Shown: one piece after another, positions 26,971 through 49,809 of the stretch | How positions within the stretch are numbered: the stretch's first letter is position 1 | Layout of the letters: each line of letters opens with the position of its first letter | Assembly: GCF_013122565.1 (NCBI RefSeq) | Contig: NZ_CP053258.1 | Reading direction: 5' to 3' (one strand) | Source of the DNA: Escherichia coli | GTDB taxonomy: Bacteria > Pseudomonadota > Gammaproteobacteria > Enterobacterales > Enterobacteriaceae | Length of the DNA: 64,000 nucleotides | Program-made: the position numbers and the translations under genes | The notes under the pieces: model-generated | Told to the model about the DNA's origin: nothing | The model's input: only the letters and a program-made list of their open reading frames with translations | Databases searched by the model: none

Positions 26971-29304
26971 TTGGCCAACTCATCCTCACGATATTCCGTT
27001 CTGACTGCCGCCCACTGGGGGCCCATGCTGGTTGAAACCGACGGCGAAACCGTGTTTAGCTCACGTGGCGCGTTAGCCACAGGAATGGAAAATTCCTTGC
27101 AGAGCGCGGTTCGCGACCAGGTTCACAGCAATACGCGGGTACGATTTCCAATGGTGCGCAAAGGCTTTCTCGCGTCACCGGAAAACCCGCAAGGCATTCC
27201 TGGGCAGGATGAATTTGTTCGCGTGAGTTGGGATGAGGCGCTGGATCTTATTCACCAACAACATAAACGCATTCGTGAGGCTTATGGTCCGGCATCGATT
27301 TTTGCTGGTTCCTACGGCTGGCGTTCAAACGGCGTGCTGCATAAGGCCTCGACATTATTACAACGCTATATGGCGCTGGCAGGCGGTTATACCGGGCATC
27401 TGGGGGATTATTCGACCGGTGCGGCACAGGCGATCATGCCGTATGTCGTGGGTGGCAGCGAAGTTTATCAACAGCAAACCAGTTGGCCGCTGGTGCTGGA
27501 ACATAGCGATGTCGTGGTGTTGTGGAGTGCTAACCCACTCAATACGCTGAAAATTGCGTGGAATGCATCTGATGAGCAGGGGCTTTCTTACTTTTCCGCA
27601 CTGCGTGACAGCGGGAAAAAGCTGATCTGCATTGATCCAATGCGATCGGAAACCGTCGATTTCTTTGGCGATAAAATGGAGTGGGTGGCACCGCACATGG
27701 GCACCGATGTTGCGCTGATGCTGGGGATCGCCCATACGCTGGTGGAAAATGGTTGGCACGACGAAGCGTTTCTGGCGCGTTGCACCACGGGTTATGCCGT
27801 CTTCGCCTCTTATTTGCTGGGCGAGTGTGATGGAATAGCGAAAAACGCCGAATGGGCGGCAGGGATTTGTGGGGTTAACGCAGAGAAAATCCGCGAGCTG
27901 GCGGCTCTTTTCCACCAAAACACGACCATGCTGATGGCTGGCTGGGGAATGCAGCGCCAACAGTTTGGTGAGCAAAAACACTGGATGATCGTCACGCTGG
28001 CGGCAATGTTGGGGCAAATCGGCACACCCGGCGGCGGTTTTGGTCTTTCTTATCATTTTGCCAATGGTGGTAACCCCACGCGGCGTTCTGCAGTGCTCTC
28101 TTCCATGCAGGGCAGCTTGCCTGGCGGCACCGATGCGGTAGATAAAATCCCTGTTGCCCGCATTGTTGAAGCACTGGAAAACCCTGGTGGCGCATATCAA
28201 CACAACGGTATGAACCGACATTTCCCGGATATTCGTTTTATCTGGTGGGCGGGCGGTGCCAACTTTACTCATCATCAGGATACCAATCGCCTGATCCGTG
28301 CCTGGCAAAAACCGGAACTGGTGGTTATCTCCGAATGCTTCTGGACGGCGGCGGCAAAACACGCGGATATCGTTCTGCCTGCGACCACCTCGTTTGAGCG
28401 TAATGATCTCACCATGACCGGTGATTACAGTAATCAGCATCTGGTGCCGATGAAGCAAGTGGTGCCGCCACGCTATGAAGCGCGTAATGATTTTGATGTT
28501 TTTGCCGAGTTAAGTGAACGCTGGGAGAAGGGCGGTTATGCACGTTTTACGGAAGGAAAAAGTGAGCTGCAATGGCTGGAAACGTTTTATAACGTTGCCC
28601 GGCAGCGCGGGGCAAGCCTGCAGATTGAATTGCCGCCATTTACGGAGTTCTGGCAAGCCAACCAGTTAATTGAGATGCCGGAAAACCCGGACAGCGAGCG
28701 GTTTATTCGCTTCGCTGATTTTTGCCGGGATCCGCAGGCGCATCCATTAAAAACTGCCAGCGGTAAGATTGAAATCTTCTCGCAGCGTATTGCCGATTAC
28801 GCTTATCCGGATTGCCCGGGGCATCCAATGTGGCTGGAGCCGGACGAATGGCAGGGCAATGCCGAACCGGAACAGTTGCAGGTACTTTCTGCTCATCCGG
28901 CGCATCGTCTGCACAGCCAGCTGAATTACAGTTCTCTGCGCGAATTGTACGCGGTGGCAAATCGTGAGCCTGTCACCATTCATCCTGACGATGCCCAGGC
29001 GCGCGGCATACAAGATGGCGATACTGTTCGGCTGTGGAACTCACGCGGGCAAATTCTTGCCGGAGCGGTCATTAGTGAGGGAATTAAACCTGGCGTGATT
29101 TGCATTCACGAAGGGGCATGGCCGGATCTGGATTTAACCGCTGACGGTATTTGTAAAAACGGCGCAGTGAACGTGCTGACCAAAGATCTCCCCAGCTCGC
29201 GGCTGGGGAATGGCTGTGCGGGTAATACGGCGCTGGCATGGCTGGAAAAATACAACGGTCCGGAACTGACACTTACAGCGTTTGAACCACCGGCCAGCTC
29301 ATAA
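26971..29304 (+). CDS. bisC: biotin sulfoxide reductase (molybdopterin oxidoreductase)
   Basis: 777-aa ORF matching BisC; 3' end overlaps convergent yiaC by 32 nt. Confidence 0.9.
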
Positions 29305-29713
29305 TCCAGGTGGGTAGTTGGGTTTCATCCTGCCATGCACAATCGACAATGTGAAAACCCTGCGCCTGGTAAAAATCTATCGCCGGTTGATTTTTTTGAT
29401 AAACCTCCAGCATCAGATGGGGATGGCGCTGCTGCACATACTGCATCAGCGCCTTACCAATACCGCGCCTGACGGCCTTCGGTGCGACAAACATCGCTGC
29501 CAGAAATCGGCCTTCCATAATGCTGACAAAACCGAGAAGCTTACCGTCTTCTTCCCAGACCCAGTTTTGCGCGTTGGCAAGATAGGCATCCCGCACCAGT
29601 GGAATGCAATCGCGCCAGTAATGCGCTTTTATAAAGGGATGCCCCCAGGTTGTACTTTCCAGCCACAGTTCGAGGATCGCGGGGAGTTCTGAACGTTGCG
29701 CTTCCCGAATCAT
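29273..29713 (-). CDS. yiaC: GNAT-family N-acetyltransferase YiaC
   Basis: 146-aa ORF with GNAT core ([11 protein letters not shown]); overlaps tag stop by 4 nt. Confidence 0.85.
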
Positions 29714-30273
29714 GGTTTATTTCCCGGATAGCAACAGCAGCCAACCACATGATCATTCACCAGCCCACATGCCTGCATAAAGGAGTAACAGATTGTGGTA
29801 CCGACAAACTTAAAACCACGTTTTTTCAGTGCCTTAGATAGGGCGTCGGAGGCGGGCGTAGATGTGGGGATTTCGCTCAATGTTGTGGCTTGTGTCACCT
29901 GTGGCTGATGATTTACGAACGACCAGACAAAGTCGGCAAATGGTTCGCCGTTCCGTTCCATTTGCAGGTACGCCCGCGCATTACCAATAATTGCCTGAAT
30001 TTTCCCTCGATGGCGGATAATCCCGGCGTCCTGTACCAGTCTTTCGACATCCTCTTCCTGCATTGCTGCGACCTTCACCGGATCGAACTGATGAAAGCTG
30101 GCGCGATAGTTTTCGCGTTTTTTGAGAACGGTGATCCACGATAACCCAGCCTGCTGCCCTTCAAGGCAGATCATTTCGAACAGTTTTTTACTGTCAGTTT
30201 CAGGCACGCCCCATTCATTATCATGGTAGGCAATATAAAGCGGGTCCTGACTCACCCAGCCGCAACGTTCCAT
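29710..30273 (-). CDS. tag: DNA-3-methyladenine glycosylase I
   Basis: Start at MERCGWVSQDPLYIAYHDNEWGVP (codon 37 of track ORF 29710-30381); 187 aa. Confidence 0.9.
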   Translation of the reverse strand: MERCGWVSQDPLYIAYHDNEWGVPETDSKKLFEMICLEGQQAGLSWITVLKKRENYRASFHQFDPVKVAAMQEEDVERLVQDAGIIRHRGKIQAIIGNARAYLQMERNGEPFADFVWSFVNHQPQVTQATTLSEIPTSTPASDALSKALKKRGFKFVGTTICYSFMQACGLVNDHVVGCCCYPGNKP

Positions 30274-30429
30274 ACTTTCCCTCGCTATGTACCCGATCGT
30301 AAAAATTTCAGCCGCTTTTCTTGACGCATCGGTGAAAAAGTCAATATTTAATACAGGGCTACTATGCCCGATATCCTTCATACAATGACAATAATATTGC
30401 CGAATTCGGCTCTCCCTGGAGTCGTGTTA

Positions 30430-31128
30430 ATGATCATAAAAAAAAGCGGTGGTCGCTGGCAGCTAAGCCTGCTGGCGAGTGTGGTAATCAGTGCCTTTTT
30501 TCTCAACACAGCTTACGCCTGGCAACAAGAATATATCGTTGATACGCAACCCGGACATTCCACAGAGCGTTACACCTGGGATAGTGATCATCAACCTGAT
30601 TACAACGATATTTTGTCGCAACGTATTCAAAGTAGCCAAAGGGCGCTGGGACTGGAAGTCAATCTGGCGGAAGAAACCCCTGTGGATGTGACCAGCAGTA
30701 TGAGTATGGGCTGGAATTTTCCTTTATATGAGCAGGTTACAACCGGCCCGGTCGCGGCATTACATTACGATGGCACAACCACCTCGATGTATAACGAGTT
30801 TGGAGACAGTACTACCACGCTGACCGATCCGTTATGGCATGCCAGCGTGAGTACCTTAGGCTGGCGTGTTGACTCCCGGCTTGGCGATCTCCGTCCCTGG
30901 GCGCAAATTAGCTATAACCAGCAATTTGGCGAGAATATCTGGAAGGCGCAATCAGGCCTGAGCCGGATGACGGCGACAAACCAGAACGGCAACTGGCTGG
31001 ATGTCACCGTCGGCGCTGATATGTTGCTCAATCAAAATATTGCCGCCTATGCCGCGCTAACTCAGGCAGAAAATACCACTAACAATAGCGACTATCTGTA
31101 TACGATGGGGGTTAGTGCCAGATTTTAA
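30430..31128 (+). CDS. yhjY: uncharacterised outer-membrane-type protein YhjY
   Basis: Start at MIIKKSGGRWQLSLLASVV signal peptide; 232 aa; terminal F, consistent with beta-barrel. Confidence 0.75.
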   Translation: MIIKKSGGRWQLSLLASVVISAFFLNTAYAWQQEYIVDTQPGHSTERYTWDSDHQPDYNDILSQRIQSSQRALGLEVNLAEETPVDVTSSMSMGWNFPLYEQVTTGPVAALHYDGTTTSMYNEFGDSTTTLTDPLWHASVSTLGWRVDSRLGDLRPWAQISYNQQFGENIWKAQSGLSRMTATNQNGNWLDVTVGADMLLNQNIAAYAALTQAENTTNNSDYLYTMGVSARF

Positions 31129-31356
31129 CGTAACAATCACAATTGAAACCATTGAATAACAATAGTTATGGCGATAGTGGGTGCTAACTTACCAAATAAT
31201 AAATTTGGTGAATAATTGTCGCGTCATTCATTCCTGAACTAAGGCATTTCATTCCGTTCTGATGGCATTTCATGCCGTTTTTCCCCAGGCATAAAGTGCA
31301 CTTCGTTATGGTTGTCGGCAGAGATTTTTCCTTTTTATTACTGCAGGAATACTGCC

Positions 31357-32559
31357 ATGACACCTTCAAATTATCAGCGTACCCGCTGGCTGACACTCAT
31401 CGGTACTATCATTACCCAGTTTGCGCTGGGGTCGGTTTATACCTGGAGCCTGTTTAATGGCGCGCTTTCCGCCAAGCTGGATGCGCCGGTAAGCCAGGTC
31501 GCTTTCTCTTTCGGCTTGTTAAGTCTGGGGCTGGCAATTTCATCTTCTGTTGCGGGCAAATTACAGGAGCGTTTTGGCGTTAAACGCGTCACCATGGCTT
31601 CCGGCATTTTGCTGGGATTAGGCTTCTTCCTGACCGCGCATTCTGACAACCTGATGATGCTGTGGTTAAGCGCCGGTGTACTGGTCGGTCTGGCAGATGG
31701 CGCGGGTTACCTGCTGACGCTCTCTAACTGCGTGAAGTGGTTCCCGGAGCGTAAAGGTCTGATCTCCGCGTTCGCTATCGGTTCTTATGGTCTGGGTAGC
31801 CTGGGTTTCAAATTTATCGACACGCAGCTGCTGGAAACGGTCGGTCTGGAAAAAACCTTTGTGATTTGGGGAGCGATTGCGCTGGTGATGATTGTTTTCG
31901 GCGCAACGTTAATGAAAGACGCACCAAAACAGGAAGTGAAAACCAGCAATGGTGTGGTGGAGAAAGATTACACGCTGGCAGAGTCGATGCGTAAACCGCA
32001 GTATTGGATGTTAGCGGTAATGTTCCTGACCGCCTGCATGAGCGGCCTGTATGTGATTGGGGTAGCGAAAGATATCGCCCAAAGTCTGGCACACCTTGAT
32101 GTGGTTTCCGCAGCCAATGCAGTAACGGTTATTTCCATCGCTAACCTTTCAGGTCGTCTGGTGCTGGGCATTCTGTCTGACAAAATCGCCCGTATCCGTG
32201 TTATCACCATTGGTCAGGTGATTTCGCTGGTGGGTATGGCGGCCCTGCTGTTTGCACCATTAAATGCCGTGACGTTCTTTGCAGCGATTGCCTGCGTGGC
32301 ATTTAACTTTGGCGGCACTATTACCGTCTTTCCGTCACTGGTCAGTGAGTTCTTCGGCCTCAATAACCTGGCGAAAAACTACGGTGTGATTTACCTCGGT
32401 TTCGGTATCGGTAGCATTTGTGGTTCGATTATCGCCTCACTGTTTGGCGGCTTCTATGTGACCTTCTACGTGATTTTCGCCCTGCTGATTCTGTCATTGG
32501 CGCTTTCTACGACGATTCGTCAGCCAGAACAGAAAATGTTGCGTGAGGCGCATATTTAG
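31357..32559 (+). CDS. yhjX: MFS transporter YhjX (pyruvate-inducible)
   Basis: Start at MTPSNYQRTRW (codon 16 of track ORF 31312-32559); 12-TM MFS protein. Confidence 0.85.
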   Translation: MTPSNYQRTRWLTLIGTIITQFALGSVYTWSLFNGALSAKLDAPVSQVAFSFGLLSLGLAISSSVAGKLQERFGVKRVTMASGILLGLGFFLTAHSDNLMMLWLSAGVLVGLADGAGYLLTLSNCVKWFPERKGLISAFAIGSYGLGSLGFKFIDTQLLETVGLEKTFVIWGAIALVMIVFGATLMKDAPKQEVKTSNGVVEKDYTLAESMRKPQYWMLAVMFLTACMSGLYVIGVAKDIAQSLAHLDVVSAANAVTVISIANLSGRLVLGILSDKIARIRVITIGQVISLVGMAALLFAPLNAVTFFAAIACVAFNFGGTITVFPSLVSEFFGLNNLAKNYGVIYLGFGIGSICGSIIASLFGGFYVTFYVIFALLILSLALSTTIRQPEQKMLREAHI

Positions 32560-32589
32560 AAATATGGCGCTACTAAAATAAATGCGATG

Positions 32590-32617
32590 AGGGAGACTTC
32601 AAAGTCTCCTTTTTTAT
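32590..32617 (+). terminator. yhjX rho-independent terminator
   Basis: Hairpin ggagacttcaaagtctcc followed by a T-run. Confidence 0.7.
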
Positions 32618-32880
32618 GGACACATATTAAAAGAATAATATTATTCACGCATCAAATATATTTCATTTATTCATATATTACATAAATATAAATATATTCC
32701 TAAAAAAATGATCTCAGGAAGCGTTTCTATGTGCAATTAATTGAAGTTGAAGTACATTTTCACTTATTGCAAAAATTAATATTCAGTAAAAACAATTTTC
32801 TTTTATAGCACCATTTGTATAATCTGCGCCCTGTTGTATGAACAACATCAAGCATATTTATCTATATAAATGGAGTTTTA

Positions 32881-33408
32881 ATGAAAAAGGTTTTCTTTGC
32901 CTTATCTGCGCTTGCGCTGACCTCTACTTCCGTATTCGCAGCTGATGCGGGCGACGGTACTATCAAATTTACCGGTGAGATTGTTGATGCCGCTTGTGTT
33001 GTCTCTCCGGACTCTCAAAAACAAGAAGTTGTTCTGGGCCAGGTGAACAAGTCTGTGTTTACTGCTACCGGTGATAAATCCCCAGCAACGCCGTTCAAAA
33101 TCAAACTGGAAAACTGCGATATCTCCTCCACTGCCAAAAACGTGGAGATCAGCTTTAGCGGCGTTGGTGCTGCAGGCAACGAGGCACTGGTTTCTGTAAG
33201 CACAGAACCAGGTGCTGCAACTGGCGTTGGTATCGGTATTTATGATAACACCAATACGCTGGTTGACCTGAATACCGGTAAATCGGCTACCCTTCTGAAA
33301 GACGGCCAGACCGTTCTGTATTTCACCGCTAACTATGTCTCTATCAGCGATGTAGTAACCACGGGTTACGGTAACGCTGAAGTCGACTTCAACCTGACTT
33401 ACAACTAA
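32881..33408 (+). CDS. lpfA: long polar fimbriae major subunit
   Basis: 175-aa ORF with signal peptide and fimbrial-subunit C-terminus; closely resembles LpfA as I recall it. Confidence 0.85.
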   Translation: MKKVFFALSALALTSTSVFAADAGDGTIKFTGEIVDAACVVSPDSQKQEVVLGQVNKSVFTATGDKSPATPFKIKLENCDISSTAKNVEISFSGVGAAGNEALVSVSTEPGAATGVGIGIYDNTNTLVDLNTGKSATLLKDGQTVLYFTANYVSISDVVTTGYGNAEVDFNLTYN

Positions 33409-33491
33409 TCGATCCTGACGGGGCGATCATCTCTCAATGGCAACAGATTATCTGTTGCCATTATTCACACCAATGACTCAGGGACCGAATC

Positions 33492-34178
33492 ATGAAACGT
33501 ATTAGCCTTACCGTTCTGGCGCTTTTAATGACTGCACAACAGTGTCTTGCTGGTGGCGTAGCCCTAAGCACGACGCGTGTTATTTATGACGGCGGCAAGA
33601 AAGAAGCGTCGCTGACCGTTGAGAATCATAATAAAAATGAAGAATTTTTGATCCAGTCATGGATTGATGATGTGAATGGAAATAAAAAAACACCGTTTAT
33701 TATTACACCACCATTATTCAAACTTGATCCTGATAAAAATAACGTATTACGTATCGTCAATATTGAAGATACCTTACCTCAAGATCGTGAATCCGTTTAC
33801 TGGATTAATGTAAAAGCCATTCCTGCGAAAAGTGCTGAAAATGAAAATAAAAATGTCTTACAGATAGCCGTTCGCACCCGTCTGAAGTTGTTCTATCGTC
33901 CAAAAGGTTTGCCGGGAAGCAACCTCGAGGCCATGAAGCAGTTACGTTTCCAGCGTCAAAATAACCAAATTGTGGTTAATAACGACTCCGCTTATAACCT
34001 GACCTTTAATCAGTTTTCCATTAATGGACAAAAGATTGAACGGGCGGGAATGGTTCTCGCGAAAGGAAAGTTAAATATTAACCTTCCAGCCGGTACAGGC
34101 AACGCGCACGAAGTGAAATACAGCATTATTAATGATTTCGGTGTTGCTGGCGAAATGCTGACGAAGCCGATTAACTGA
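33492..34178 (+). CDS. lpfB: fimbrial periplasmic chaperone
   Basis: 228-aa PapD-like chaperone with signal peptide. Confidence 0.85.
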   Translation: MKRISLTVLALLMTAQQCLAGGVALSTTRVIYDGGKKEASLTVENHNKNEEFLIQSWIDDVNGNKKTPFIITPPLFKLDPDKNNVLRIVNIEDTLPQDRESVYWINVKAIPAKSAENENKNVLQIAVRTRLKLFYRPKGLPGSNLEAMKQLRFQRQNNQIVVNNDSAYNLTFNQFSINGQKIERAGMVLAKGKLNINLPAGTGNAHEVKYSIINDFGVAGEMLTKPIN

Positions 34179-34201
34179 TCCTTTTACAAGGCGCTTTTAC
34201 T

Positions 34202-36733
34202 ATGCATTGGATGCATTTACCTCTCTATCACTACAGAGCGCATTTTTCCTTCTCTCTGCTGGCATTAACGATTGCCAGCGCGTTACCTGCGTATGGCGGA
34301 AAATTTAACCCAAAATTTCTCGAAAACGTTCAGGGTATCGATCAACACGTCGACTTGTCGGTATACGACTCACCTGTCGGCCAGCAAATACCCGGTAAAT
34401 ACCGGGTTTCGGTGTTTGTAAACGAAGAAAAAATGGCTTCCCAGACGCTGGATTTTAGTACCGCCAGCGAAGCGAAACGCAAAGCCAGCGGTGAGTCGCT
34501 TATGCCTTGCCTTAGCCGGGTGCAACTGGAAGAAATGGGCGTACGCGTTGACAGCTTTCCGGCGCTGAAGATGTCGCCACCGGAAGCCTGCGTGGCATTT
34601 GATGAAATCATTCCTCAGGCTACCAGCCGCTTTGATTTTAATACTCAGACGCTGCATCTTTCCTTCCCTCAGGCGGCAATGATGATGACCGCGCGTGGCA
34701 CGGTTGATCCTTCTCGCTGGGACGAAGGAATACCGGCGCTGTTGCTTGATTACAGCTTTAGTGGCAGCAATGGACGCAATGAAGGTACAGGTTCATCTTC
34801 AGATTCGACCAGTGACAGTTATTACCTGAACCTGCGCAGCGGTTTGAACCTGGGGCCGTGGCGTTTACGGAATAACAGTATCTGGAACCGTACCGATGGC
34901 AAAAACCAATGGGATAACGTTGGTACATCATTAAACCGGGCGATTATCCCACTCAAGTCACAGATAACACTGGGTGATACCGCCACGCCTGGCGAGATTT
35001 TTGACAGCGTACAAATGCGTGGGGCATTACTGGCATCCGATGATGAAATGTTGCCGGATAGTCAGCGTGGCTTTGCTCCGGTGGTGCGGGGCATCGCCAA
35101 AAGCAACGCTGAAGTGAGTATCGAACAGAACGGATATGTTATTTATCGTACCTTTGTTCAGCCGGGCGCATTTGAGATTAACGATCTCTACGCAACCTCC
35201 GGCAGCGGCGACCTGACGGTGATCATTAAAGAAGCTGACGGAAGTGAGCAACGTTTTATCCAGCCGTTTTCGGCGGTGGCGATTTTCCAGCGTGAAGGGT
35301 ATCTGAAATACAGCCTGGCTGCCGGTGAGTATCGTGCGGGTAATTACGACAGCGATAAACCACGTTTCGGGCAGTTTACCGCCATGTACGGTTTACCGTG
35401 GGGGATGACCGCCTACGGTGGCGCATTGTTGTCGGCAGACTACAACGCTTTAGCTCTGGGGCTGGGGAAAAACTTCGGCACCATTGGCGCGGTGTCGGTG
35501 GATGTCACTCAGGCGAAAAGTCAGTTACGCAACAATGAAAAAGAGGAAGGCCAGTCTTATCGTTTCCTCTATTCGAAAAGTTTTGACGGCGGCACTGATC
35601 TGCGTCTGTTGGGCTACAAGTACTCAACCAGCGGCTACTACACTTTCCAGGAAGCGACCGATGTTCGCAGTGACGCCGACAGTGATTACCGTCGTTATCA
35701 CAAGCGTAGCCAGATACAGGGCAACATTACCCAGCAACTGGGAGACTACGGCTCTGTTTATTTCAATATGACGCAGCAGGATTACTGGAACGTTGGCGGT
35801 AAGGAAAATTCCTTAAGCGCCGGTTATCGCGGTCATATTGGTCGGGTGAATTACAGTGTTGCCTATACCTGGACGAGAAGCCCGGAATGGGAAGAGGACG
35901 ATCGCCTGTGGTCATTCAGTGTCTCGATCCCTCTGGGGAGTGCGTGGAGCAGTTATCGCATGACCACCGACCAGAATGGCAAGACGTCGCAACAGGCCTC
36001 TGTCAGCGGTACGTTACTGGAAGATCATAACCTGAACTATAACGTTCAGCAGGGTTACACCAGTAATGGTGTTGGCTACAGTGGTAGCGCCAGCATGGGG
36101 TATATGGGTGGTTCTGGCAACATTGACGTGGGCTATAACTATTCCAAAGATAACCAACAGGTTAACTATGGCGTGCGCGGCGGTGTCATCGTTCACAGTG
36201 AAGGTATAACGCTTTCGCAGCCTTTAGGCGAAAGTCTGGCGATTGTTTCTGCACCGGGCGCGCGTGGCGGACATGTGGTTAATAGCAGCGGCGTAGAAGT
36301 TGACTGGATGGGCAACGCCGTGGTGCCGTATCTCACGCCATATCGTGAAACCATTGTGGAATTGCGCAGCGATACGCTGGGGCAAAACGTTGAACTACAG
36401 GAAGCGTATCAGAAAGTCGTACCCACGCGTGGCGCGGTTGTGCGTTCCCGCTTTGATACTCGCGTCGGTTATCGTGTGCTGATGAGCTTAAAACAGGCGA
36501 ATGGCAACGCAGTACCGTTTGGTGCCACCGCAACTTTAATTGATGAGAGCAAACCTGCCAGCAGCATTGTGGGTGAAGAGGGGCAGCTTTATATCAGCGG
36601 GATGCCAGAAGAGGGCGAATTGCAGGTGAGCTGGGGGAACGAGCAGGCGCAACGTTGCCGTGTGCCATTCCGCTTGCCAGAGAACAAGGACAATGCGGCT
36701 ATCGTGATGGTTAATGCGGTATGCGAGAAATAA
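34202..36733 (+). CDS. lpfC: fimbrial outer-membrane usher
   Basis: 843-aa usher as one uninterrupted reading frame. Confidence 0.85.
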   Translation: MHWMHLPLYHYRAHFSFSLLALTIASALPAYGGKFNPKFLENVQGIDQHVDLSVYDSPVGQQIPGKYRVSVFVNEEKMASQTLDFSTASEAKRKASGESLMPCLSRVQLEEMGVRVDSFPALKMSPPEACVAFDEIIPQATSRFDFNTQTLHLSFPQAAMMMTARGTVDPSRWDEGIPALLLDYSFSGSNGRNEGTGSSSDSTSDSYYLNLRSGLNLGPWRLRNNSIWNRTDGKNQWDNVGTSLNRAIIPLKSQITLGDTATPGEIFDSVQMRGALLASDDEMLPDSQRGFAPVVRGIAKSNAEVSIEQNGYVIYRTFVQPGAFEINDLYATSGSGDLTVIIKEADGSEQRFIQPFSAVAIFQREGYLKYSLAAGEYRAGNYDSDKPRFGQFTAMYGLPWGMTAYGGALLSADYNALALGLGKNFGTIGAVSVDVTQAKSQLRNNEKEEGQSYRFLYSKSFDGGTDLRLLGYKYSTSGYYTFQEATDVRSDADSDYRRYHKRSQIQGNITQQLGDYGSVYFNMTQQDYWNVGGKENSLSAGYRGHIGRVNYSVAYTWTRSPEWEEDDRLWSFSVSIPLGSAWSSYRMTTDQNGKTSQQASVSGTLLEDHNLNYNVQQGYTSNGVGYSGSASMGYMGGSGNIDVGYNYSKDNQQVNYGVRGGVIVHSEGITLSQPLGESLAIVSAPGARGGHVVNSSGVEVDWMGNAVVPYLTPYRETIVELRSDTLGQNVELQEAYQKVVPTRGAVVRSRFDTRVGYRVLMSLKQANGNAVPFGATATLIDESKPASSIVGEEGQLYISGMPEEGELQVSWGNEQAQRCRVPFRLPENKDNAAIVMVNAVCEK

Positions 36734-36743
36734 GGATATTCAG

Positions 36744-37796
36744 ATGAAAATTAAAAATTTGTTGGCAGGTATGGTGCTGTTTGGGACGAGCACCTTTGCC
36801 GGGAATATATGGGCGGCGGATTGGGGGCCGTGCAGGACGGCAAGTGGTGATCCTTTTATTTTTACTACATCATTCACCAAAAATATTCAAAACCCGACGG
36901 ATAACGTTGCCGGGCAGACCTATACTGATTTTTACCAATGGGCGCTAGGTGATAAATATTCTGGTGTTTGTGAATGCCCATCACCGACACCGACAGAATC
37001 CCGACCAACGCTATATAAAGCTGAGTCAACACTACCTGCAGGGCATGACTCAACCTATTTTAAAATTACCAATAATCTTGAGGTTTCAAGCAAAGTATAT
37101 ATTGCCAACGTGGGCTATGTACAAGTTCCATTCGTTAATAGATCCAATGTACAGCCTGGGAAAGAGTGCGATCAACCCACTTCGGGGTGGACGACAGGAA
37201 GTAAGGGGCGGCTCTCACTTTATATCGCTAAACCGTTCGTTGGGGAACAAGACATTCCGCAAACCACGATAGTTTCTGTGTATGGTACAAAAGCAGCGAA
37301 TGTGTATGGTTCAGTTCCAATGTCTGAGGTGCTTCTTTCAGGAAAAGTAACCGTAACGCAAGGTTGTGAACTCGCCGCAGGTACTGCGCTGGATATTGAT
37401 TTCGGTGAATATCAGGCGCACGACTTTAAAGATCGCGTTGGCCAACCGCCGCAAAATGTTCGGAAGATACAAAAGGAGCTGACATTTAATTGCAACAATA
37501 TCTCTGATGGTGTCCATATTTACCTTAGCCTTGAAGGTTCATCAAATACGGCTTATCCCAGCGCAATTAACCTGGGTAATGCCGATGTCGGAGCCATTAT
37601 TGAAGATGGGAAAGGCAATATTCTGAAACCTAATGATGACAACTGCTTATTAGAAATGGATTCAGGAACACTGTATGAGGATGTTAAACGCACGGCGAAA
37701 ATCACGATAACGGCTTATCCCGTTAGCACGACAGGAAAATTGCCTACGGCCGGTGACTATGATGGCGTGGCAACAATGCATGTTGAACTGGAGTGA
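36744..37796 (+). CDS. lpfD: fimbrial tip adhesin-like subunit
   Basis: Start at MKIKNLLAGMVLFGTSTFAG (codon 11 of track ORF 36714-37796); ~350 aa. Confidence 0.75.
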   Translation: MKIKNLLAGMVLFGTSTFAGNIWAADWGPCRTASGDPFIFTTSFTKNIQNPTDNVAGQTYTDFYQWALGDKYSGVCECPSPTPTESRPTLYKAESTLPAGHDSTYFKITNNLEVSSKVYIANVGYVQVPFVNRSNVQPGKECDQPTSGWTTGSKGRLSLYIAKPFVGEQDIPQTTIVSVYGTKAANVYGSVPMSEVLLSGKVTVTQGCELAAGTALDIDFGEYQAHDFKDRVGQPPQNVRKIQKELTFNCNNISDGVHIYLSLEGSSNTAYPSAINLGNADVGAIIEDGKGNILKPNDDNCLLEMDSGTLYEDVKRTAKITITAYPVSTTGKLPTAGDYDGVATMHVELE

Positions 37797-37801
37797 CGGT
37801 C

Positions 37802-38326
37802 ATGAAACAAATCGTGATTATGTTGTGCTTACTATCTTGTGCCTTTTCGCCACTGGCGGCAATTACGGATTTAGGGCCGAAAGGAACATTGAAATTCACC
37901 CTTAAAATCAGTCAGGGGGCCTGCGAACTGGTAAAAGACAGTGTTGAAGTTGACATGGGCACCGCAGTTCTCAAGAAGCCGGTAAGAATCGGAACGGAAC
38001 TGAACCCTACCGCTTTTTCAATTGGATTAAAAAACTGTAGTGAAGTGGTCAGAGTCTACGTCACTATGGATGGTACGCCAAATGCGGATGACCCCAATTT
38101 GTTTGCGTTAGATGCGGGTGGCGCTACAGGCGTTGGGCTGAAAATCAAAACCGCCGCGGGCGTACAACAGCTCCCCGAAAATACAACGCCGACACCGATT
38201 GAGTTCGCGATTAATGGTGATGGCGCGCATCAACTAAACTATATCGCCAGCTACGTGCCACTTCGCGCCGATGCAACCATTGGTCGCGCGGATGCAACGG
38301 TCGATTTTACTGTACAGTACGAATAA
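37802..38326 (+). CDS. lpfE: fimbrial minor subunit
   Basis: Start at MKQIVIMLCLL (track ORF begins at GTG 37793); fimbrial subunit fold. Confidence 0.75.
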   Translation: MKQIVIMLCLLSCAFSPLAAITDLGPKGTLKFTLKISQGACELVKDSVEVDMGTAVLKKPVRIGTELNPTAFSIGLKNCSEVVRVYVTMDGTPNADDPNLFALDAGGATGVGLKIKTAAGVQQLPENTTPTPIEFAINGDGAHQLNYIASYVPLRADATIGRADATVDFTVQYE

Positions 38327-38334
38327 TTTCACAT

Positions 38335-38362
38335 CTTAGGGGCCAGTTAACTGGCCCTTTTT
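38335..38362 (+). terminator. lpf operon rho-independent terminator
   Basis: Hairpin ggggccagttaactggccc followed by tttttact. Confidence 0.7.
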
Positions 38363-38577
38363 ACTGCTTTTTGTAACGCCAAGTCTCTTTTCAAACTTGC
38401 ATTTTTGTAAATTTGTGCTTCATGCACACTCTTTCCCCACACTTTTTCCCTTTGCTGTGGTCTACTTATTCGCGCGTGTAGATTTTACTTATCTGACTAC
38501 CTCCGCACTTTTCCCCTGCCGGGCCTGAAAAGCCGCTTAGCAGGGTGTTATCACCTGTTTGTCCAGGGTTTGTTTGC

Positions 38578-40269
38578 ATGAGATACATCAAATCGATTAC
38601 ACAGCAGAAGCTGAGCTTTTTGCTTGCAATCTATATTGGCCTTTTTATGAATGGCGCGGTTTTTTACCGCCGCTTCGGCAGCTATGCGCACGATTTTACC
38701 GTCTGGAAAGGCATTTCTGCTGTTGTTGAACTGGTCGCCACCGTACTGGTGACCTTCTTTCTACTGCGTCTTCTTTCGCTGTTTGGCCGCCGCAGCTGGC
38801 GTATTCTGGCATCATTGGTGGTGCTCTTTTCCGCCGGTGCCAGCTATTACATGACCTTCCTTAATGTGGTTATTGGTTATGGCATCATCGCTTCCGTCAT
38901 GACCACCGATATCGACCTGTCAAAAGAAGTTGTTGGTCTGAACTTTATTCTCTGGTTAATCGCCGTTAGCGCATTGCCTCTTATCCTTATCTGGAATAAC
39001 CGCTGTCGCTATACCTTGCTCCGACAACTGCGAACCCCAGGGCAGCGTATTCGCAGCCTGGCAGTCGTCGTACTGGCGGGTATTATGGTTTGGGCACCGA
39101 TTCGTTTTCTGGATATCCAGCAGAAGAAAGTGGAGAGGGCGACCGGCGTTGATTTGCCGAGTTATGGCGGCGTCGTAGCGAACTCTTATCTGCCATCAAA
39201 CTGGCTTTCGGCATTGGGGCTGTACGCCTGGGCGCGGGTCGATGAATCTTCCGATAATAATTCATTGCTTAATCCGGCGAAGAAATTCACTTATCAGGCA
39301 CCGCAAAATGTTGATGACACTTATGTCGTGTTTATCATCGGTGAAACCACGCGTTGGGACCATATGGGCATTTTCGGCTATGAACGTAACACCACGCCGA
39401 AGCTGGCCCAGGAGAAAAATCTGGCGGCGTTCCGTGGTTACTCCTGTGATACCGCAACCAAACTCTCACTGCGTTGCATGTTTGTACGTCAGGGGGGCGC
39501 GGAAGATAATCCGCAGCGCACATTAAAAGAACAGAATATTTTCGCGGTGCTGAAGCAGTTAGGATTCAGTTCTGACCTCTACGCTATGCAAAGCGAAATG
39601 TGGTTCTACAGCAATACGATGGCGGACAACATTGCTTATCGTGAGCAGATTGGTGCGGAGCCACGTAACCGTGGCAAGCCGGTAGATGATATGCTGCTGG
39701 TAGACGAAATGCAGCAATCGCTGGGGCGCAACCCGGATGGTAAGCATCTGATCATTCTGCATACCAAAGGTTCGCACTTTAACTACACCCAGCGTTACCC
39801 GCGCAGCTTCGCGCAGTGGAAGCCGGAATGTATTGGTGTTGATAGCGGCTGTACCAAAGCGCAGATGATCAACTCCTACGACAACTCGGTGACCTATGTG
39901 GATCATTTTATTTCCAGCGTGATTGATCAGGTTCGCGATAAGAAAGCGATTGTGTTCTATGCAGCTGACCACGGTGAGTCAATTAACGAACGCGAGCACC
40001 TGCACGGCACGCCGCGTGAACTGGCACCGCCGGAGCAGTTCCGCGTGCCGATGATGGTCTGGATGTCAGATAAATATCTGGAAAATCCGGCCAATGCGCA
40101 GGCATTTGCGCAGCTGAAAAAAGAAGCCGACATGAAAGTGCCACGCCGTCACGTAGAGCTGTACGACACCATCATGGGTTGTCTTGGCTATACTTCACCG
40201 GATGGTGGAATTAACGAAAACAACAACTGGTGTCACATCCCGCAGGCAAAAGAGGCAGCGGCTAACTAA
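38578..40269 (+). CDS. eptB: Kdo2-lipid A phosphoethanolamine transferase
   Basis: Start at [21 protein letters not shown] (codon 12 of track ORF); 563 aa; N-terminal TM region plus sulfatase-like domain. Confidence 0.85.
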
Positions 40270-40319
40270 GAGGCCTGCTGACTTTCTCGCCGATCAAAAG
40301 GCATTTTGCTATTAAGGGA

Positions 40320-40348
40320 TTGACGAGGGCGTATCTGCGCAGTAAGAT
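40320..40348 (+). promoter_or_regulatory. proK promoter
   Basis: -35 ttgacg (40320-40325), 17-bp spacer, -10 taagat (40343-40348), GC-rich discriminator gcgccccgc. Confidence 0.55.
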
Positions 40349-40360
40349 GCGCCCCGCATT

Positions 40361-40437
<77 letters not shown>

Positions 40438-40442
40438 ATTTA

Positions 40443-40470
40443 GAAAAACCAGCCTACGGGCTGGTTTTTT
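40443..40470 (+). terminator. proK rho-independent terminator
   Basis: Hairpin ccagcctacgggctgg followed by ttttttgc. Confidence 0.7.
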
Positions 40471-40524
40471 GCTTTCTGCGGCCTGAAGAGGATGAGAACC
40501 TCCGGGGGCTGGGAGGTTCGACTC

Positions 40525-40612
40525 GACGTAGGCCTGATAAGACGCGCCAGCGTCGCATCAGGCAAATGTGCCGGCCCATTGTCGGATGCAGCGTACCCGT
40601 CTTATCCGACCT
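40525..40612. repeat. REP elements between proK and dppA
   Basis: gtaggcctgataagacgcgccagcgtcgcatcaggc and gtcggatgcagcgtacccgtcttatccgacc. Confidence 0.6.
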
Positions 40613-41049
40613 AAACGGCAGCACACCACACATTTCCCTGCCAAATTTGCGCCCCATATCTCACTATCCATTAACGGATTTGTGACAGAAACCATTGTCT
40701 TTTTTTATATTTGCTTAAATCTTTTTTTGCGTTACTTATGGCTGGCGCTGGCATTTTCCGCTGTGCGTTTTAGCGTTCATGGTATTAATCGCTCAGATAT
40801 CCACCTTTTCCTCAGATTTTTTTCATTAAATGCATAAAACTTAATCACCAAATGTTGCTAAATATTAAGCTGATTGTTCTGGTCATGTTGGAGTAGCACA
40901 AATTTCTCTGCTGCAAATAGCTGTTTGAAGTTTTTTTAATCTTTGTTTGTGGATTCTCACCGTTGGTGTAAATCCTGGTTGGCTGTATTGACGTTTTCAC
41001 ATTCTGTTGACAGATTGTAGGTCACGAGGGGCATTTTATGGAGGATCCG

Positions 41050-41188
41050 CACTGTTACACTGATGTTAATTAGTACGGCATCCCCACCTCATAACGTTGA
41101 CCCGACCGGGCAAAAAACAAAAAAGGTCAGGCAGCGACAACCCACTGCAAAGGGTTAAAACAACAAACATCACAATTGGAGCAGAATA
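41050..41188 (+). promoter_or_regulatory. dppA 5' leader with CA-rich stretch (likely GcvB sRNA target region)
   Basis: caaaaaacaaaaaagg...aaaacaacaaacatcacaa just upstream of the RBS. Confidence 0.4.
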
Positions 41189-42796
41189 ATGCGTATTTCC
41201 TTGAAAAAGTCAGGGATGCTGAAGCTTGGTCTCAGCCTGGTGGCTATGACCGTCGCAGCAAGTGTTCAGGCTAAAACTCTGGTTTATTGCTCAGAAGGAT
41301 CTCCGGAAGGGTTTAACCCGCAGCTGTTTACCTCCGGTACCACCTATGACGCCTCTTCCGTACCGCTTTATAACCGCCTGGTTGAATTTAAAATCGGCAC
41401 CACCGAAGTGATCCCGGGCCTCGCTGAAAAGTGGGAAGTCAGCGAAGACGGTAAAACCTATACCTTCCATCTGCGTAAAGGTGTGAAGTGGCACGACAAT
41501 AAAGAATTCAAACCGACGCGCGAAATGAATGCCGATGACGTGGTGTTCTCGTTCGATCGTCAGAAAAACGCGCAAAACCCGTACCATAAAGTTTCTGGCG
41601 GCAGCTACGAATACTTCGAAGGCATGGGCTTGCCGGAGCTGATCAGCGAAGTGAAAAAGGTGGACGACAACACAGTTCAGTTTGTGCTGACTCGCCCAGA
41701 AGCGCCGTTCCTCGCTGACCTGGCAATGGACTTCGCCTCTATTCTGTCAAAAGAATATGCTGACGCGATGATGAAAGCCGGTACACCGGAAAAACTGGAC
41801 CTCAACCCAATCGGCACCGGTCCGTTCCAGTTACAGCAGTACCAAAAAGATTCCCGTATCCGCTACAAAGCGTTTGATGGCTACTGGGGCACCAAACCGC
41901 AGATCGATACGCTGGTCTTCTCTATTACCCCTGACGCTTCCGTGCGTTACGCTAAATTGCAGAAAAATGAATGCCAGGTGATGCCGTACCCGAACCCGGC
42001 AGATATCGCTCGCATGAAGCAGGATAAATCCATCAATCTGATGGAAATGCCGGGGCTGAACGTCGGTTATCTCTCGTATAACGTGCAGAAAAAACCACTC
42101 GATGACGTGAAAGTTCGCCAGGCTCTGACCTACGCGGTGAACAAAGACGCGATCATCAAAGCGGTTTATCAGGGCGCGGGTGTATCAGCGAAAAACCTGA
42201 TCCCGCCAACCATGTGGGGCTATAACGACGACGTTCAGGACTACACCTACGATCCTGAAAAAGCGAAAGCCTTGCTGAAAGAAGCGGGTCTGGAAAAAGG
42301 TTTCTCCATCGACCTGTGGGCGATGCCGGTACAACGTCCGTATAACCCGAACGCTCGCCGCATGGCGGAGATGATTCAGGCTGACTGGGCGAAAGTCGGC
42401 GTGCAGGCCAAAATTGTCACCTACGAATGGGGTGAGTACCTCAAGCGTGCGAAAGATGGCGAGCACCAGACGGTAATGATGGGCTGGACTGGCGATAACG
42501 GGGATCCGGATAACTTCTTCGCCACCCTGTTCAGCTGCGCCGCCTCTGAACAAGGCTCCAACTACTCAAAATGGTGCTACAAACCGTTTGAAGATCTGAT
42601 TCAACCGGCGCGTGCTACCGACGACCACAACAAACGCGTTGAACTGTACAAGCAAGCGCAGGTGGTGATGCACGATCAGGCTCCGGCACTGATCATCGCT
42701 CACTCCACCGTGTTTGAGCCTGTACGCAAAGAAGTTAAAGGCTATGTGGTTGATCCATTAGGCAAACATCACTTCGAAAACGTCTCTATCGAATAA
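41189..42796 (+). CDS. dppA: dipeptide ABC transporter periplasmic binding protein
   Basis: 535-aa ORF with signal peptide; matches DppA. Confidence 0.95.
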   Translation: MRISLKKSGMLKLGLSLVAMTVAASVQAKTLVYCSEGSPEGFNPQLFTSGTTYDASSVPLYNRLVEFKIGTTEVIPGLAEKWEVSEDGKTYTFHLRKGVKWHDNKEFKPTREMNADDVVFSFDRQKNAQNPYHKVSGGSYEYFEGMGLPELISEVKKVDDNTVQFVLTRPEAPFLADLAMDFASILSKEYADAMMKAGTPEKLDLNPIGTGPFQLQQYQKDSRIRYKAFDGYWGTKPQIDTLVFSITPDASVRYAKLQKNECQVMPYPNPADIARMKQDKSINLMEMPGLNVGYLSYNVQKKPLDDVKVRQALTYAVNKDAIIKAVYQGAGVSAKNLIPPTMWGYNDDVQDYTYDPEKAKALLKEAGLEKGFSIDLWAMPVQRPYNPNARRMAEMIQADWAKVGVQAKIVTYEWGEYLKRAKDGEHQTVMMGWTGDNGDPDNFFATLFSCAASEQGSNYSKWCYKPFEDLIQPARATDDHNKRVELYKQAQVVMHDQAPALIIAHSTVFEPVRKEVKGYVVDPLGKHHFENVSIE

Positions 42797-42946
42797 TTAA
42801 AAGCCATACCCGGTGGCGCTGTGCCTCTGCGTGCAGCGCCATCCGGCAGCAATACTTCATTCCCTGCCCGACCTGGGCGGGAATTGATTTGTGAGCAATA
42901 CAGACACGCAGTTCCAGGCTGCGGGTCACTACAGAGAATCCGGGTT

Positions 42947-43966: not shown

Positions 43967-43975
43967 GGGGACATC

Positions 43976-44878: not shown

Positions 44879-44888
44879 GAGGTTCGAG

Positions 44889-46873: not shown

Positions 46874-46902
46874 CTCACAAAACCGGGGCCATGCGCTCCG
46901 GT

Positions 46903-48174: not shown

Positions 48175-48534
48175 AAAGTCCTGTCCAGAAAGAAGTCGGC
48201 CTCGCAAAAATGAATAAACCCAGTTTCTCTTGCGCAACAGGTGGAGAAGTCGAATACGCAGTATGTAAAAAATGAGGCAACAGATTCACTGGGGAGGTCG
48301 CGAGGAGGCGCAATTCTACAAAATTGCGCATTTCACTACCAGTCTGGAGTCAGCCCGGATATGAACTGCAACTATTGCAAATAAAGAAATTAAGCTGGAA
48401 GGCATCACGCAATGAGGAAGATTGTCGGGTGCTGAGGGTAAAAAGCAATCGTAAAATCAGCGGCAAGCCGGAAGGGTTCCGGTGAGGCGCAATGTTGCGG
48501 GGGCTTTATCCCTGGTGGCATTGGTTGCTGGAGA

Positions 48535-48601
48535 GAGAAAACCCCCGCACGTTGCAGGTATGCACCTGACAACACCACGGGGGCTAATCTTGACTCTAGA
48601 C
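48535..48601 (-). ncRNA. rdlD: Rdl antisense RNA, copy 1
   Basis: Minus strand reads gtctagagtcaagattagcccccgtggtgttgtcaggtgcatacctgcaacgtgcgggggttttctc, matching Rdl as recalled (terminal hairpin plus U tail). Confidence 0.55.
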
Positions 48602-48649
48602 CACTCAAGAATAGCCGCGAAACGTTGTCATTACAACACAGGCGGCTAT

Positions 48650-49804: not shown

Positions 49805-49809
49805 CGTTC

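What the first reader, a model, noticed from the sequence alone, without database searches (positions are those of the whole stretch)
32560..38577. lpf-type fimbrial operon inserted between yhjX and eptB with AT-rich boundaries
Five genes (major subunit, chaperone, one-piece 843-aa usher, adhesin-like subunit, minor subunit) sit between the yhjX terminator and eptB, which are adjacent in K-12. The 260-bp region upstream of lpfA is extremely AT-rich, typical of a silenced horizontally acquired fimbrial promoter. All five frames are intact, so the operon is potentially functional.
Basis: partly seen in the sequence, partly recalled or inferred. Interest (0 to 1): 0.4.

Follow-up and report, generated by a model that had tools for sequence, protein, structure and literature searches.

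The report
Known long polar fimbriae operon, rare allele
This is an intact, already annotated long polar fimbriae (lpfABCDE) adhesin operon of E. coli. It sits at a chromosomal site where related bacteria also carry it, so K-12 most likely lost it rather than this strain gaining it. Only its allele is unusual.

Summary
Five intact genes lie between yhjX and eptB: lpfA, lpfB, a one-piece 843-aa lpfC, lpfD and lpfE. All five score above NCBIfam's Lpf equivalog cut-offs. The 321 bp upstream of lpfA are 26% G+C and contain the most AT-rich stretch of the 64-kb window. The downstream boundary is not AT-rich.

The "inserted, horizontally acquired island" reading is not the best one.
- The order yhjY-yhjX-lpfABCDE-eptB recurs in E. 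albertii, three Enterobacter species and Pseudocitrobacter. Salmonella has it too, with yhjX reduced to a 3' remnant.
- The 400-aa YhjX ending of lpf-positive strains is shared with E. albertii.
- K-12 still carries the lpfE terminator behind yhjX.
- No integrase, tRNA or flanking repeats mark the segment.

K-12 therefore looks like a deletion, which agrees with Wurpel et al. 2013.

The operon is not the O157 OI-141 type (LpfC 68% identical). It is the LF82/B1 type (96-98%) and is closer to Salmonella Lpf (73%).

About 22% of 5,426 complete E. coli genomes carry one of three lpf lineages at this site. Here lpfA and lpfD are rare alleles, and the coding region is a recombination mosaic. This is ordinary biology and already annotated, so interest is low.

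The parts
32554..38339 (+). Segment present here and absent from K-12 (5,786 bp; K-12 has 96 unrelated bp instead)
   Evidence: BLAST of the K-12 junction against the window. Homology ends at 32553, 6 nt before the yhjX stop, and resumes at 38340. All three E. coli lpf lineages share the same left junction.
32591..32616 (+). Terminator-like hairpin plus T-run behind yhjX, carried on the lpf-side sequence
   Evidence: Folds to a stem GGAGACU/AGUCUCC followed by U6; -13.6 kcal/mol, z -3.55. A hairpin plus T-run occupies the same position in the other lpf-positive loci.
32620..32880 (+). AT-rich regulatory region upstream of lpfA (23.8% G+C)
   Evidence: Lowest-G+C stretch of the window. The sigma-70-like matches at 32617-32644 and 32670-32698 are no more frequent than in shuffled sequence. 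It holds one GATC site (32710) and no invertible-element repeats. It is 100% identical in sister genome L010.
32881..33408 (+). lpfA, major fimbrial subunit (175 aa)
   Evidence: NCBIfam LpfA 319.7 bits against a cut-off of 221, full length. Pfam Fimbrial. Exact match to QJU26444 / WP_171460176. It is the only member of its 90%-identity cluster. Related to FimA structures.
33436..33462 (+). Conserved stem-loop in the lpfA-lpfB spacer (12-bp stem)
   Evidence: Predicted fold. Found at the same place in all lpf lineages and genera examined; 6 of 10 pairs show compensatory changes.
33492..34178 (+). lpfB, periplasmic PapD-like chaperone (228 aa)
   Evidence: NCBIfam LpfB 471 bits against a cut-off of 360. 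Aligns from G22 with residue 1 of SfaE/FimC. The Arg in GVALSTTR and the Lys in RLKLFYRP are conserved in the aligned SfaE chaperone. dN/dS 0.05-0.09.
34202..36733 (+). lpfC, outer-membrane usher (843 aa, uninterrupted)
   Evidence: NCBIfam LpfC 1815 bits against a cut-off of 1271, positions 1-842 of 842. PapC_N/Usher/PapC_C domains. FimD structures match at E 5e-213. dN/dS 0.04-0.06.
36744..37796 (+). lpfD, two-domain tip adhesin (350 aa)
   Evidence: NCBIfam LpfD 484 bits against a cut-off of 412. Matches PDB 5AFO, labelled 'FIMBRIAE' in the PDB table and which I identify from memory as LF82 LpfD, at E 2e-192 from residue A25. Its 90%-identity cluster has 3 members. The next cluster is 85% identical.
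37802..38326 (+). lpfE, minor fimbrial subunit (174 aa)
   Evidence: NCBIfam LpfE 298.9 bits against a cut-off of 169. Exact match to QJU26448.
38338..38362 (+). Terminator hairpin plus T-run behind lpfE; the same element follows yhjX in K-12
   Evidence: Fold -15.7 kcal/mol, z -3.09. K-12 homology resumes here. A recognisably homologous element follows lpfE in Salmonella and Enterobacter.
38363..38577 (+). eptB upstream region, retained and unaffected
   Evidence: 98% identical to K-12 across the 450-bp alignment that includes it.

Best explanation
**What it is.** A complete lpfABCDE long polar fimbriae operon of the chaperone-usher pathway, related to type 1 fimbriae.

**How it works.**
- Shown by sequence: LpfB is a PapD-like chaperone with the conserved Arg/Lys subunit-binding pair. 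LpfC is a full-length usher. LpfA is the major pilin. LpfD is a two-domain tip adhesin. LpfE is a single minor subunit.
- Inferred from the family: subunits cross the inner membrane by Sec and are held by LpfB through donor-strand complementation. They are then polymerised at LpfC by donor-strand exchange, with LpfD first, LpfE probably as adaptor, then an LpfA rod.
- Inferred from structure conservation: a covarying hairpin after lpfA probably attenuates or stabilises the transcript, so that pilin outnumbers the assembly proteins. The operon ends at a terminator that K-12 retains.
- Inferred from relatives: the AT-rich promoter is probably silenced by H-NS and induced in the gut. H-NS/Ler control is reported for O157 lpf, and bile-salt induction via FhlA for AIEC. 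The likely role is adhesion to M cells and follicle-associated epithelium, as shown for LF82.

**History.** The yhjX-eptB site is an old lpf locus of the Enterobacteriaceae. E. coli is polymorphic there: about 78% of genomes carry one shared deletion allele, and about 22% carry one of three deeply divergent lpf lineages. This window has the LF82/B1 lineage. It combines rare lpfA and lpfD alleles, assembled by recombination within the structural genes.
For: **Identity and integrity**
- Purifying selection on lpfB and lpfC (dN/dS 0.04-0.09) equals that on yhjX and eptB. lpfA and lpfD run up to 0.3.

**Lineage**
- LpfC is 96-98% identical to the LF82 and B1 strains, 73% to Salmonella and Enterobacter, and 68% to O157, O127:H6 and E. 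albertii.

**Old locus**
- Synteny is conserved in E. albertii, three Enterobacter species and Pseudocitrobacter. Salmonella keeps a yhjX 3' remnant.
- The YhjX ending ..EAHI* is shared by all lpf-positive E. coli and E. albertii. K-12's ..EAHGSL* is the odd one out.
- The lpfE terminator is retained in K-12.
- No mobility signatures were found.
- PMC3559732 reached the same conclusion.

**Census of 5,426 complete genomes**
- 4,222 have the K-12-type empty junction, 696 this lineage, 422 the O157 type and 78 the O127:H6 type.

**Rarity**

**Mosaic**
- Sister genome L010 has 1 difference across 29843-32880 and none across 38327-42717.
- It has 146 differences confined to 32940-38215, and 143 of them are polymorphisms seen in other alleles.

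**Function of the closest studied relative**
- LF82 lacking lpfA translocates less through human follicle-associated epithelium (PMC7008151).
- H-NS/Ler and bile-salt control are cited in PMC5357955.
Against: - Nothing here shows expression, fimbriae or binding. The promoter scan found no more sites than in shuffled sequence, and the H-NS motif scan was uninformative.
- The 96 bp that fill the empty site in K-12 match nothing in any lpf locus. The deletion was therefore not a clean excision, and its mechanism is unknown.
- Lineages differing by 30% and more in protein sequence, next to 98-99% identical flanks, cannot result from vertical descent within E. coli alone. Some import from other species by recombination through the flanks must have happened. 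'Horizontal' is thus partly right at the allele level.
- One Enterobacter-like genome has lpf on the other side of eptB.
Confidence: 0.85

Rival explanations
1. One reading: a horizontally acquired genomic island was inserted into a K-12-like yhjX-eptB spacer. Its AT-rich promoter marks foreign DNA.
For: - It is absent from K-12 and from 78% of complete E. coli genomes.
- Operon G+C is 48.5%, against 50.8% for the window, with a 24-26% G+C upstream region.
- Three very divergent lineages occupy the site.
- Salmonella and Enterobacter LpfC are 95% identical despite 74% identical EptB, so inter-genus transfer of lpf does occur.
Against: - The same synteny is found in several genera.
- All three E. 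coli lineages share one left junction inside yhjX, and the lpf-side yhjX ending is the one shared with E. albertii.
- The terminator behind lpfE in the window type, Salmonella and Enterobacter is the one K-12 keeps.
- No integrase, IS element, adjacent tRNA or flanking direct repeats.
- Published usher phylogeny and locus analysis call the locus ancient.
Confidence: 0.12
2. It is simply an allele of the O157:H7 lpf1 (OI-141) operon with an unbroken usher.
For: Same chromosomal site and gene order. The O157 lpfC is annotated as a pseudogene with an internal stop.
Against: - Protein identity to O157 is 71% (LpfA), 65% (LpfB), 68% (LpfC), 37% (LpfD) and 44% (LpfE). That is lower than to Salmonella for LpfB-E and about equal for LpfA.
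- The right junctions differ.
- Megablast did not join the two operons.
- PGAP names the O157 and O127:H6 protein at the lpfD position only 'fimbrial protein', whereas the window's LpfD passes the LpfD model.
Confidence: 0.03
3. It is a cryptic, decaying operon that is never expressed and has no current role.
For: - There is no expression evidence.
- The AT-rich upstream region is compatible with permanent silencing.
- The locus has been lost in most E. coli.
- It carries pseudogene annotations in O157 and in Shigella flexneri.
Against: - All five frames are intact and full length.
- lpfB and lpfC are under purifying selection as strong as the neighbouring housekeeping genes.
- Variation in lpfA and lpfD is reshuffled standing polymorphism, as expected for exposed, selected antigens.
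- The LF82 relative is functional.
Confidence: 0.12

Closest known systems
lpf operon of adherent-invasive E. coli LF82 (and the lpfA1-2-type operons of B1 strains such as O26 and O103)
   Same: Same site, gene order and junction type. LpfB is 97-98%, LpfC 96-98% and LpfE 89-90% identical. LpfD is 85.7% identical to LF82's and matches PDB 5AFO at E 2e-192.
   Different: - LpfA is 87-90% identical and has a one-residue insertion.
- LpfD is only 62% identical to the B1-type adhesin.
- No complete E. coli genome exceeds 91% nucleotide identity over the upstream region plus lpfA, or 83% over lpfD-lpfE.
Salmonella enterica lpfABCDE (prototype long polar fimbriae)
   Same: Five genes in the same order next to eptB, with a homologous lpfA-lpfB hairpin and lpfE terminator. 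All five window proteins pass the LpfA-E equivalog models that NCBI uses to name these proteins.
   Different: Protein identity is 72, 69, 73, 47 and 53% for LpfA to LpfE. In Salmonella yhjX is reduced to a 3' remnant.
E. coli O157:H7 lpf1 (O-island 141) and EPEC O127:H6 lpf (lpfA1-3 and lpfA1-1)
   Same: Same chromosomal site, same left junction inside yhjX, same five-gene plan, AT-rich upstream region.
   Different: A separate lineage shared with E. albertii: LpfC is 68% and LpfD 37-38% identical. Their right junctions differ. The O157 usher has an internal stop.
Type 1 fimbriae (fimAICDFGH)
   Same: Same assembly machinery. LpfC matches FimD at E 5e-213, LpfB matches FimC/SfaE at E 1e-44 to 6e-46, and LpfA matches FimA.
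   Different: No fimB/fimE recombinases and no invertible promoter repeats. One minor subunit instead of three. The adhesin is LpfD, not the mannose-binding FimH; it scores 85.7 bits against the FimH model's cut-off of 472.

Membership tests
Long polar fimbriae operon (LpfABCDE, Salmonella-type, NCBIfam equivalogs) | Five genes in the order major subunit, chaperone, usher, adhesin, minor subunit | tested here: met
   ORFs and domains
Long polar fimbriae operon (LpfABCDE, Salmonella-type, NCBIfam equivalogs) | Each protein scores above the curated LpfA-E cut-off over its full length | tested here: met
   Scores against cut-offs: 319.7/221, 471/360, 1815/1271, 484/412 and 298.9/169 bits
Long polar fimbriae operon (LpfABCDE, Salmonella-type, NCBIfam equivalogs) | Position beside eptB, downstream of yhjX/yhjY | tested here: met
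Long polar fimbriae operon (LpfABCDE, Salmonella-type, NCBIfam equivalogs) | Produces long, polar fimbriae that mediate adhesion to M cells or Peyer's patches | not testable with these tools
   Known only for relatives, e.g. LF82 in PMC7008151
Chaperone-usher fimbriae, type 1-like (gamma-1) group | Usher with N-terminal, barrel/plug and C-terminal domains | tested here: met
   PapC_N, Usher and PapC_C domains; FimD structures match at E 5e-213
Chaperone-usher fimbriae, type 1-like (gamma-1) group | PapD-like chaperone with the conserved Arg8/Lys112-equivalent pair | tested here: met
   Alignment to SfaE from mature residue 1 shows both residues conserved. The residue numbering is from my own knowledge of FimC/PapD.
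O157:H7 lpf1 / OI-141 allele group (lpfA1-3) | Close sequence identity to the O157 lpfA1 operon | tested here: not met
   37-71% protein identity; megablast does not join the two operons
lpfA1-2 allele (EHEC2/EPEC2, LEE-negative STEC) | Match to the lpfA carried by O26/O103-type strains | tested here: inconclusive
   This is the nearest allele, but identity is only 90.9-91.0% over the upstream region plus lpfA and 90% in protein. The typing primers were not available to test.
Horizontally acquired genomic island | Integrase or transposase, tRNA or att-type target, flanking direct repeats | tested here: not met
   Only fimbrial ORFs are present. No boundary repeats. The nearest tRNA is 2 kb away, beyond eptB.
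Horizontally acquired genomic island | Absent from the same site in related species | tested here: not met
   Present at this site in E. albertii, Salmonella, three Enterobacter species and Pseudocitrobacter

The most novel reading that the evidence does not exclude
This little-sampled E. coli lineage may carry a previously unstudied antigenic and receptor variant of long polar fimbriae.
- Its LpfA is alone in its 90%-identity cluster, and its LpfD cluster has three members.
- Recombination confined to the structural genes produced the combination, while the promoter stayed 100% identical to the sister genome.
- The variant might have a different host or tissue tropism from LF82 Lpf.

Separately, the covarying lpfA-lpfB hairpin could be an undescribed conserved RNA element that sets subunit stoichiometry across the whole Lpf family.
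Probability: 0.3. Interest if true: 0.3.

Novelty: already known. Interest (0 to 1): 0.15.

Why it matters
The main value is as a correction. 'Present here, absent in K-12' was read as an insertion, but the evidence points to an old locus that K-12 and most other E. coli have lost.

For typing, this operon would probably be missed or mis-assigned by schemes built on the O157, O127:H6 or O26 alleles. Its lpfA is at most 91% identical to any allele in 5,426 complete genomes, and its lpfD-lpfE region at most 83%.

The locus is also a clear small example of how surface adhesin genes evolve. Assembly genes stay conserved, while pilin and adhesin alleles are ancient, highly divergent and shuffled by recombination.

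None of this changes what is known about Lpf biology.

Tried and rejected
- **Promoter and terminator scan.** Promoter-like sites were no more frequent than in shuffled sequence. The scan missed both obvious terminators, probably because their stems extend into the loop. I folded them directly instead.
- **H-NS motif TCGATAAATT with up to 2 mismatches.** The window total equals chance. Two hits in the upstream region reflect only AT-richness.
- **Dam/Pap-like phase switch.** The upstream region has a single GATC.
- **fim-like invertible switch.** No inverted repeats bracket the promoter and no recombinase gene is present.
- **Boundary direct repeats.** None found.
- **Origin of K-12's 96-bp filler.** Nothing significant turned up in any lpf locus, in the outgroups, or in the yhjX-eptB spacer of an Enterobacter-like genome where lpf lies elsewhere.
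- **Rfam.** No family matches in the operon.
- **Literature.** Torres et al. 2002 (PMC128367) is not held, and searches pairing lpf with yhjX or yhjW found nothing useful. Statements about OI-141 therefore rest on the annotated O157 record and my own knowledge.
- **Species-representative genome scan with an LpfA alignment.** It returned only 12 loci, five of them informative, so it is not a census.
Full report
**1. The observation**

The interval 32560-38577 is exactly the space between the yhjX stop (32559) and the eptB start (38578). It holds five same-strand ORFs:

| Gene | Coordinates | Length |
|---|---|---|
| lpfA | 32881-33408 | 175 aa |
| lpfB | 33492-34178 | 228 aa |
| lpfC | 34202-36733 | 843 aa, uninterrupted |
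| lpfD | 36744-37796 | 350 aa |
| lpfE | 37802-38326 | 174 aa |

The mechanical ORF list starts lpfD at 36714 and lpfE at 37793. Annotated relatives place the starts at 36744 and 37802. With those starts both proteins match public entries QJU26447 and QJU26448 exactly.

Pfam finds Fimbrial, PapD_N/PapD_C and PapC_N/Usher/PapC_C domains. All five proteins pass NCBIfam's curated LpfA-E equivalog cut-offs essentially end to end. The 321 bp upstream of lpfA are 26.2% G+C. This is the only place in the 64 kb where a 261-bp window drops below 27%. In K-12 yhjX and eptB are adjacent, 323 bp apart.
- The downstream boundary is not AT-rich (45% G+C).
- The segment missing from K-12 is 32554-38339, not the whole spacer.

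**2. Which lpf operon it is**

O157 does carry an lpf operon at this site, with an internal stop in lpfC. It is a different lineage.

| Window protein | vs O157 | vs LF82 | vs B1-type strain 600468 | vs Salmonella |
|---|---|---|---|---|
| LpfA | 71% | 87% | 90% | 72% |
| LpfB | 65% | 97% | 98% | 69% |
| LpfC | 68% | 96% | 98% | 73% |
| LpfD | 37% | 86% | 62% | 47% |
| LpfE | 44% | 89% | 90% | 53% |

Three lineages emerge:
- **Type I:** the window, LF82 and B1 strains.
- **Type II:** O157, O127:H6 and E. albertii.
- **Type III:** Salmonella and Enterobacter.

For LpfB to LpfE, type I is closer to type III than to type II.

PMC3417533 assigns lpfA1-3 to O157, lpfA1-1 to O127:H6 and lpfA1-2 to EHEC2/EPEC2 and LEE-negative STEC. 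The window's best lpfA-region matches are O26/O103-type strains, at only 90.9-91.0%.

**3. Insertion or loss?**

*Synteny.* The order tag-yhjY-yhjX-lpfABCDE-eptB occurs in E. albertii, Enterobacter asburiae, E. quasihormaechei, E. sichuanensis and a Pseudocitrobacter genome. In Salmonella lpfABCDE sits between yhjY and eptB. The spacer before lpfA there still encodes a remnant of the last ~35 residues of YhjX.

*The yhjX ending.* All lpf-positive E. coli of all three lineages have a 400-aa YhjX ending ..EAHI*, as does E. albertii. Enterobacter also has 400 aa. K-12's 402-aa ..EAHGSL* is the exception. The left junction with K-12 is at the same nucleotide in all three lineages.

*The terminator.* K-12 homology resumes at the hairpin GGGCCAGTTAACTGGCCC-T5, 14 nt after the lpfE stop. 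A recognisably homologous hairpin and downstream sequence follow lpfE in Salmonella and Enterobacter. The terminator that follows yhjX in K-12 is therefore the lpfE terminator.

*No mobility signatures.* There is no integrase or IS and there are no boundary repeats. The nearest tRNA lies beyond eptB.

*Literature.* Wurpel et al. 2013 (PMC3559732) state that this fimbrial type clades with Salmonella Lpf by usher phylogeny. [quoted passage not shown]

I therefore read K-12 as a deletion derivative.

*Two caveats.*
- The 96 bp that replace the operon in K-12 match nothing I could find.
- Lineages 30% or more apart in protein, next to 98-99% identical flanks, cannot be vertical divergence within E. 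coli. Alleles must also move between species through the conserved flanks. Salmonella and Enterobacter LpfC are 94.8% identical although their EptB proteins are 73.8% identical.

**4. Census**

| State at the yhjX-eptB site | Complete genomes (of 5,426) | Source |
|---|---|---|
| K-12-type empty junction, at least 80% of a 296-bp probe | 4,222 | |
| Window-type operon | 696 | |
| O157 type | 422 | |
| O127:H6 type | 78 | |
| Total | 5,418 | |

A single empty allele is shared by all lpf-negative genomes, at 95-100% identity in the genomes listed.

**5. What is unusual here**

- The window's LpfA is the only member of its 90%-identity cluster in a 15-billion-protein collection. It is seen on two contigs.
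- Its LpfD cluster has three members. The next cluster, the LF82 type, is 85% identical.
- No complete genome exceeds 83% nucleotide identity over lpfD-lpfE.
- The host lineage is poorly sampled. A 20-kb dpp-bcs stretch is at best 98.4% identical to any complete genome.

A draft genome of the same lineage (L010, GCA_018578885) was compared with the window:

| Window interval | Differences from L010 |
|---|---|
| 29843-32880, promoter region included | 1 |
| 32940-38215, inside the coding region | 146 (including a 3-bp indel in lpfA) |
| 38327-42717 | 0 |

At 143 of the 146 sites, one or both states recur in other type I alleles. This is reshuffled standing variation, that is, recombination.

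| Gene(s) | dN/dS |
|---|---|
| lpfB, lpfC | 0.04-0.09 |
| yhjX, eptB (flanks) | 0.02-0.05 |
| lpfA | 0.26-0.34 |
| lpfD | 0.09-0.32 |

Synonymous divergence between the two lpfD classes within type I is saturated.

**6. Mechanism**

*Shown by sequence.*
- LpfB is a PapD-like chaperone. It aligns from mature residue 1 with SfaE/FimC, and its subunit-binding Arg and Lys are conserved.
- LpfC is a full-length FimD-like usher.
- LpfA is a FimA-like pilin.
- LpfD matches PDB 5AFO from residue A25. I identify 5AFO as LF82 LpfD from memory.

*Inferred from the family.* Assembly proceeds by donor-strand complementation and exchange, with LpfD at the tip, LpfE as adaptor and LpfA as shaft.

*Transcript architecture.*
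- A terminator-like hairpin lies behind yhjX (32591-32616) and another behind lpfE (38338-38362).
- A 12-bp hairpin sits in the lpfA-lpfB spacer (33436-33462).
- That hairpin occurs at the same place in all three lineages and five genera. Six of its ten pairs keep pairing through changes on both sides.
- In type III it is followed by a U-run. I infer a partial terminator or stabiliser that sets the pilin-to-machinery ratio, as described for other fimbrial operons (my own knowledge).

*Regulation and role are inferred from relatives.* H-NS/Ler control is reported for O157 lpf, and bile-salt induction via FhlA for AIEC (cited in PMC5357955). LF82 lacking lpfA shows reduced translocation through human follicle-associated epithelium and M-cell models (PMC7008151).

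**7. Verdict**

This is a real, intact and correctly recognised lpf operon, already annotated as LpfA-E in the public record. The 'island insertion' interpretation should be replaced by 'ancient polymorphic locus, lost in K-12'. The allele is rare but the biology is ordinary, so interest is low.

Noticed in passing
window 33436-33462; also L003, L004, L005, L007-L009, L013-L016 just after lpfA: A stem-loop in the lpfA-lpfB spacer is conserved in position across all lpf lineages and genera examined. Six of ten pairs show compensatory changes. No Rfam family covers it.
   Followed up: partly
L007 (Salmonella) compared with L009 (Enterobacter asburiae): LpfB and LpfC are 94.8% identical between the two genera, while the adjacent EptB is 73.8% and Tag 80.8% identical. 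This points to recent inter-genus exchange of the operon at the same locus.
   Followed up: partly
L001 3155-3250 (K-12 empty site): The 96 bp that replace the operon in K-12 and in 4,222 other complete genomes, including the last four yhjX codons, have no detectable homolog in any lpf locus or outgroup. Their origin is unexplained.
   Followed up: partly
L016 (Enterobacter sp. kpr-6) 5065-14467: Here lpfABCDE lies after eptB, in the order yhjX, an unannotated ~140-codon ORF, eptB, lpf, dppA. This is a rearranged version of the neighbourhood.
   Followed up: partly
L005 15243-15257 (E. coli O127:H6): The O127:H6-type operon replaces the eptB upstream region up to 15 nt before the start codon. 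That lineage should therefore have a different eptB promoter and 5' leader from K-12 and the window.
   Followed up: no
window 27741-46796 compared with L010: Outside the operon the two sister genomes alternate between identical stretches and patches of about 2% divergence: 27789-29842 in bisC/yiaC/tag, and from 42718 in dppA onwards. This is a patchwork of recombination tracts.
   Followed up: partly
window 41000-61000: The best identity of this 20-kb dpp-bcs core stretch to any of 5,426 complete RefSeq E. coli genomes is 98.4%. The source strain therefore belongs to a poorly sampled lineage.
   Followed up: no
L015 (Pseudocitrobacter MAG) 9001-14472: Its lpfA-lpfB hairpin has the O157-type stem (GGCGGCG/TGCCGCC), and its LpfD is only 36% identical to the window's. 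The O157/E. albertii-like lineage may therefore also exist outside Escherichia.
   Followed up: no
window 40361-40434 and 40531-40611: A tRNA lies just downstream of eptB, where the K-12 record annotates tRNA-Pro. A naRNA4 (REP-derived) element lies on the minus strand between it and dppA.
   Followed up: no
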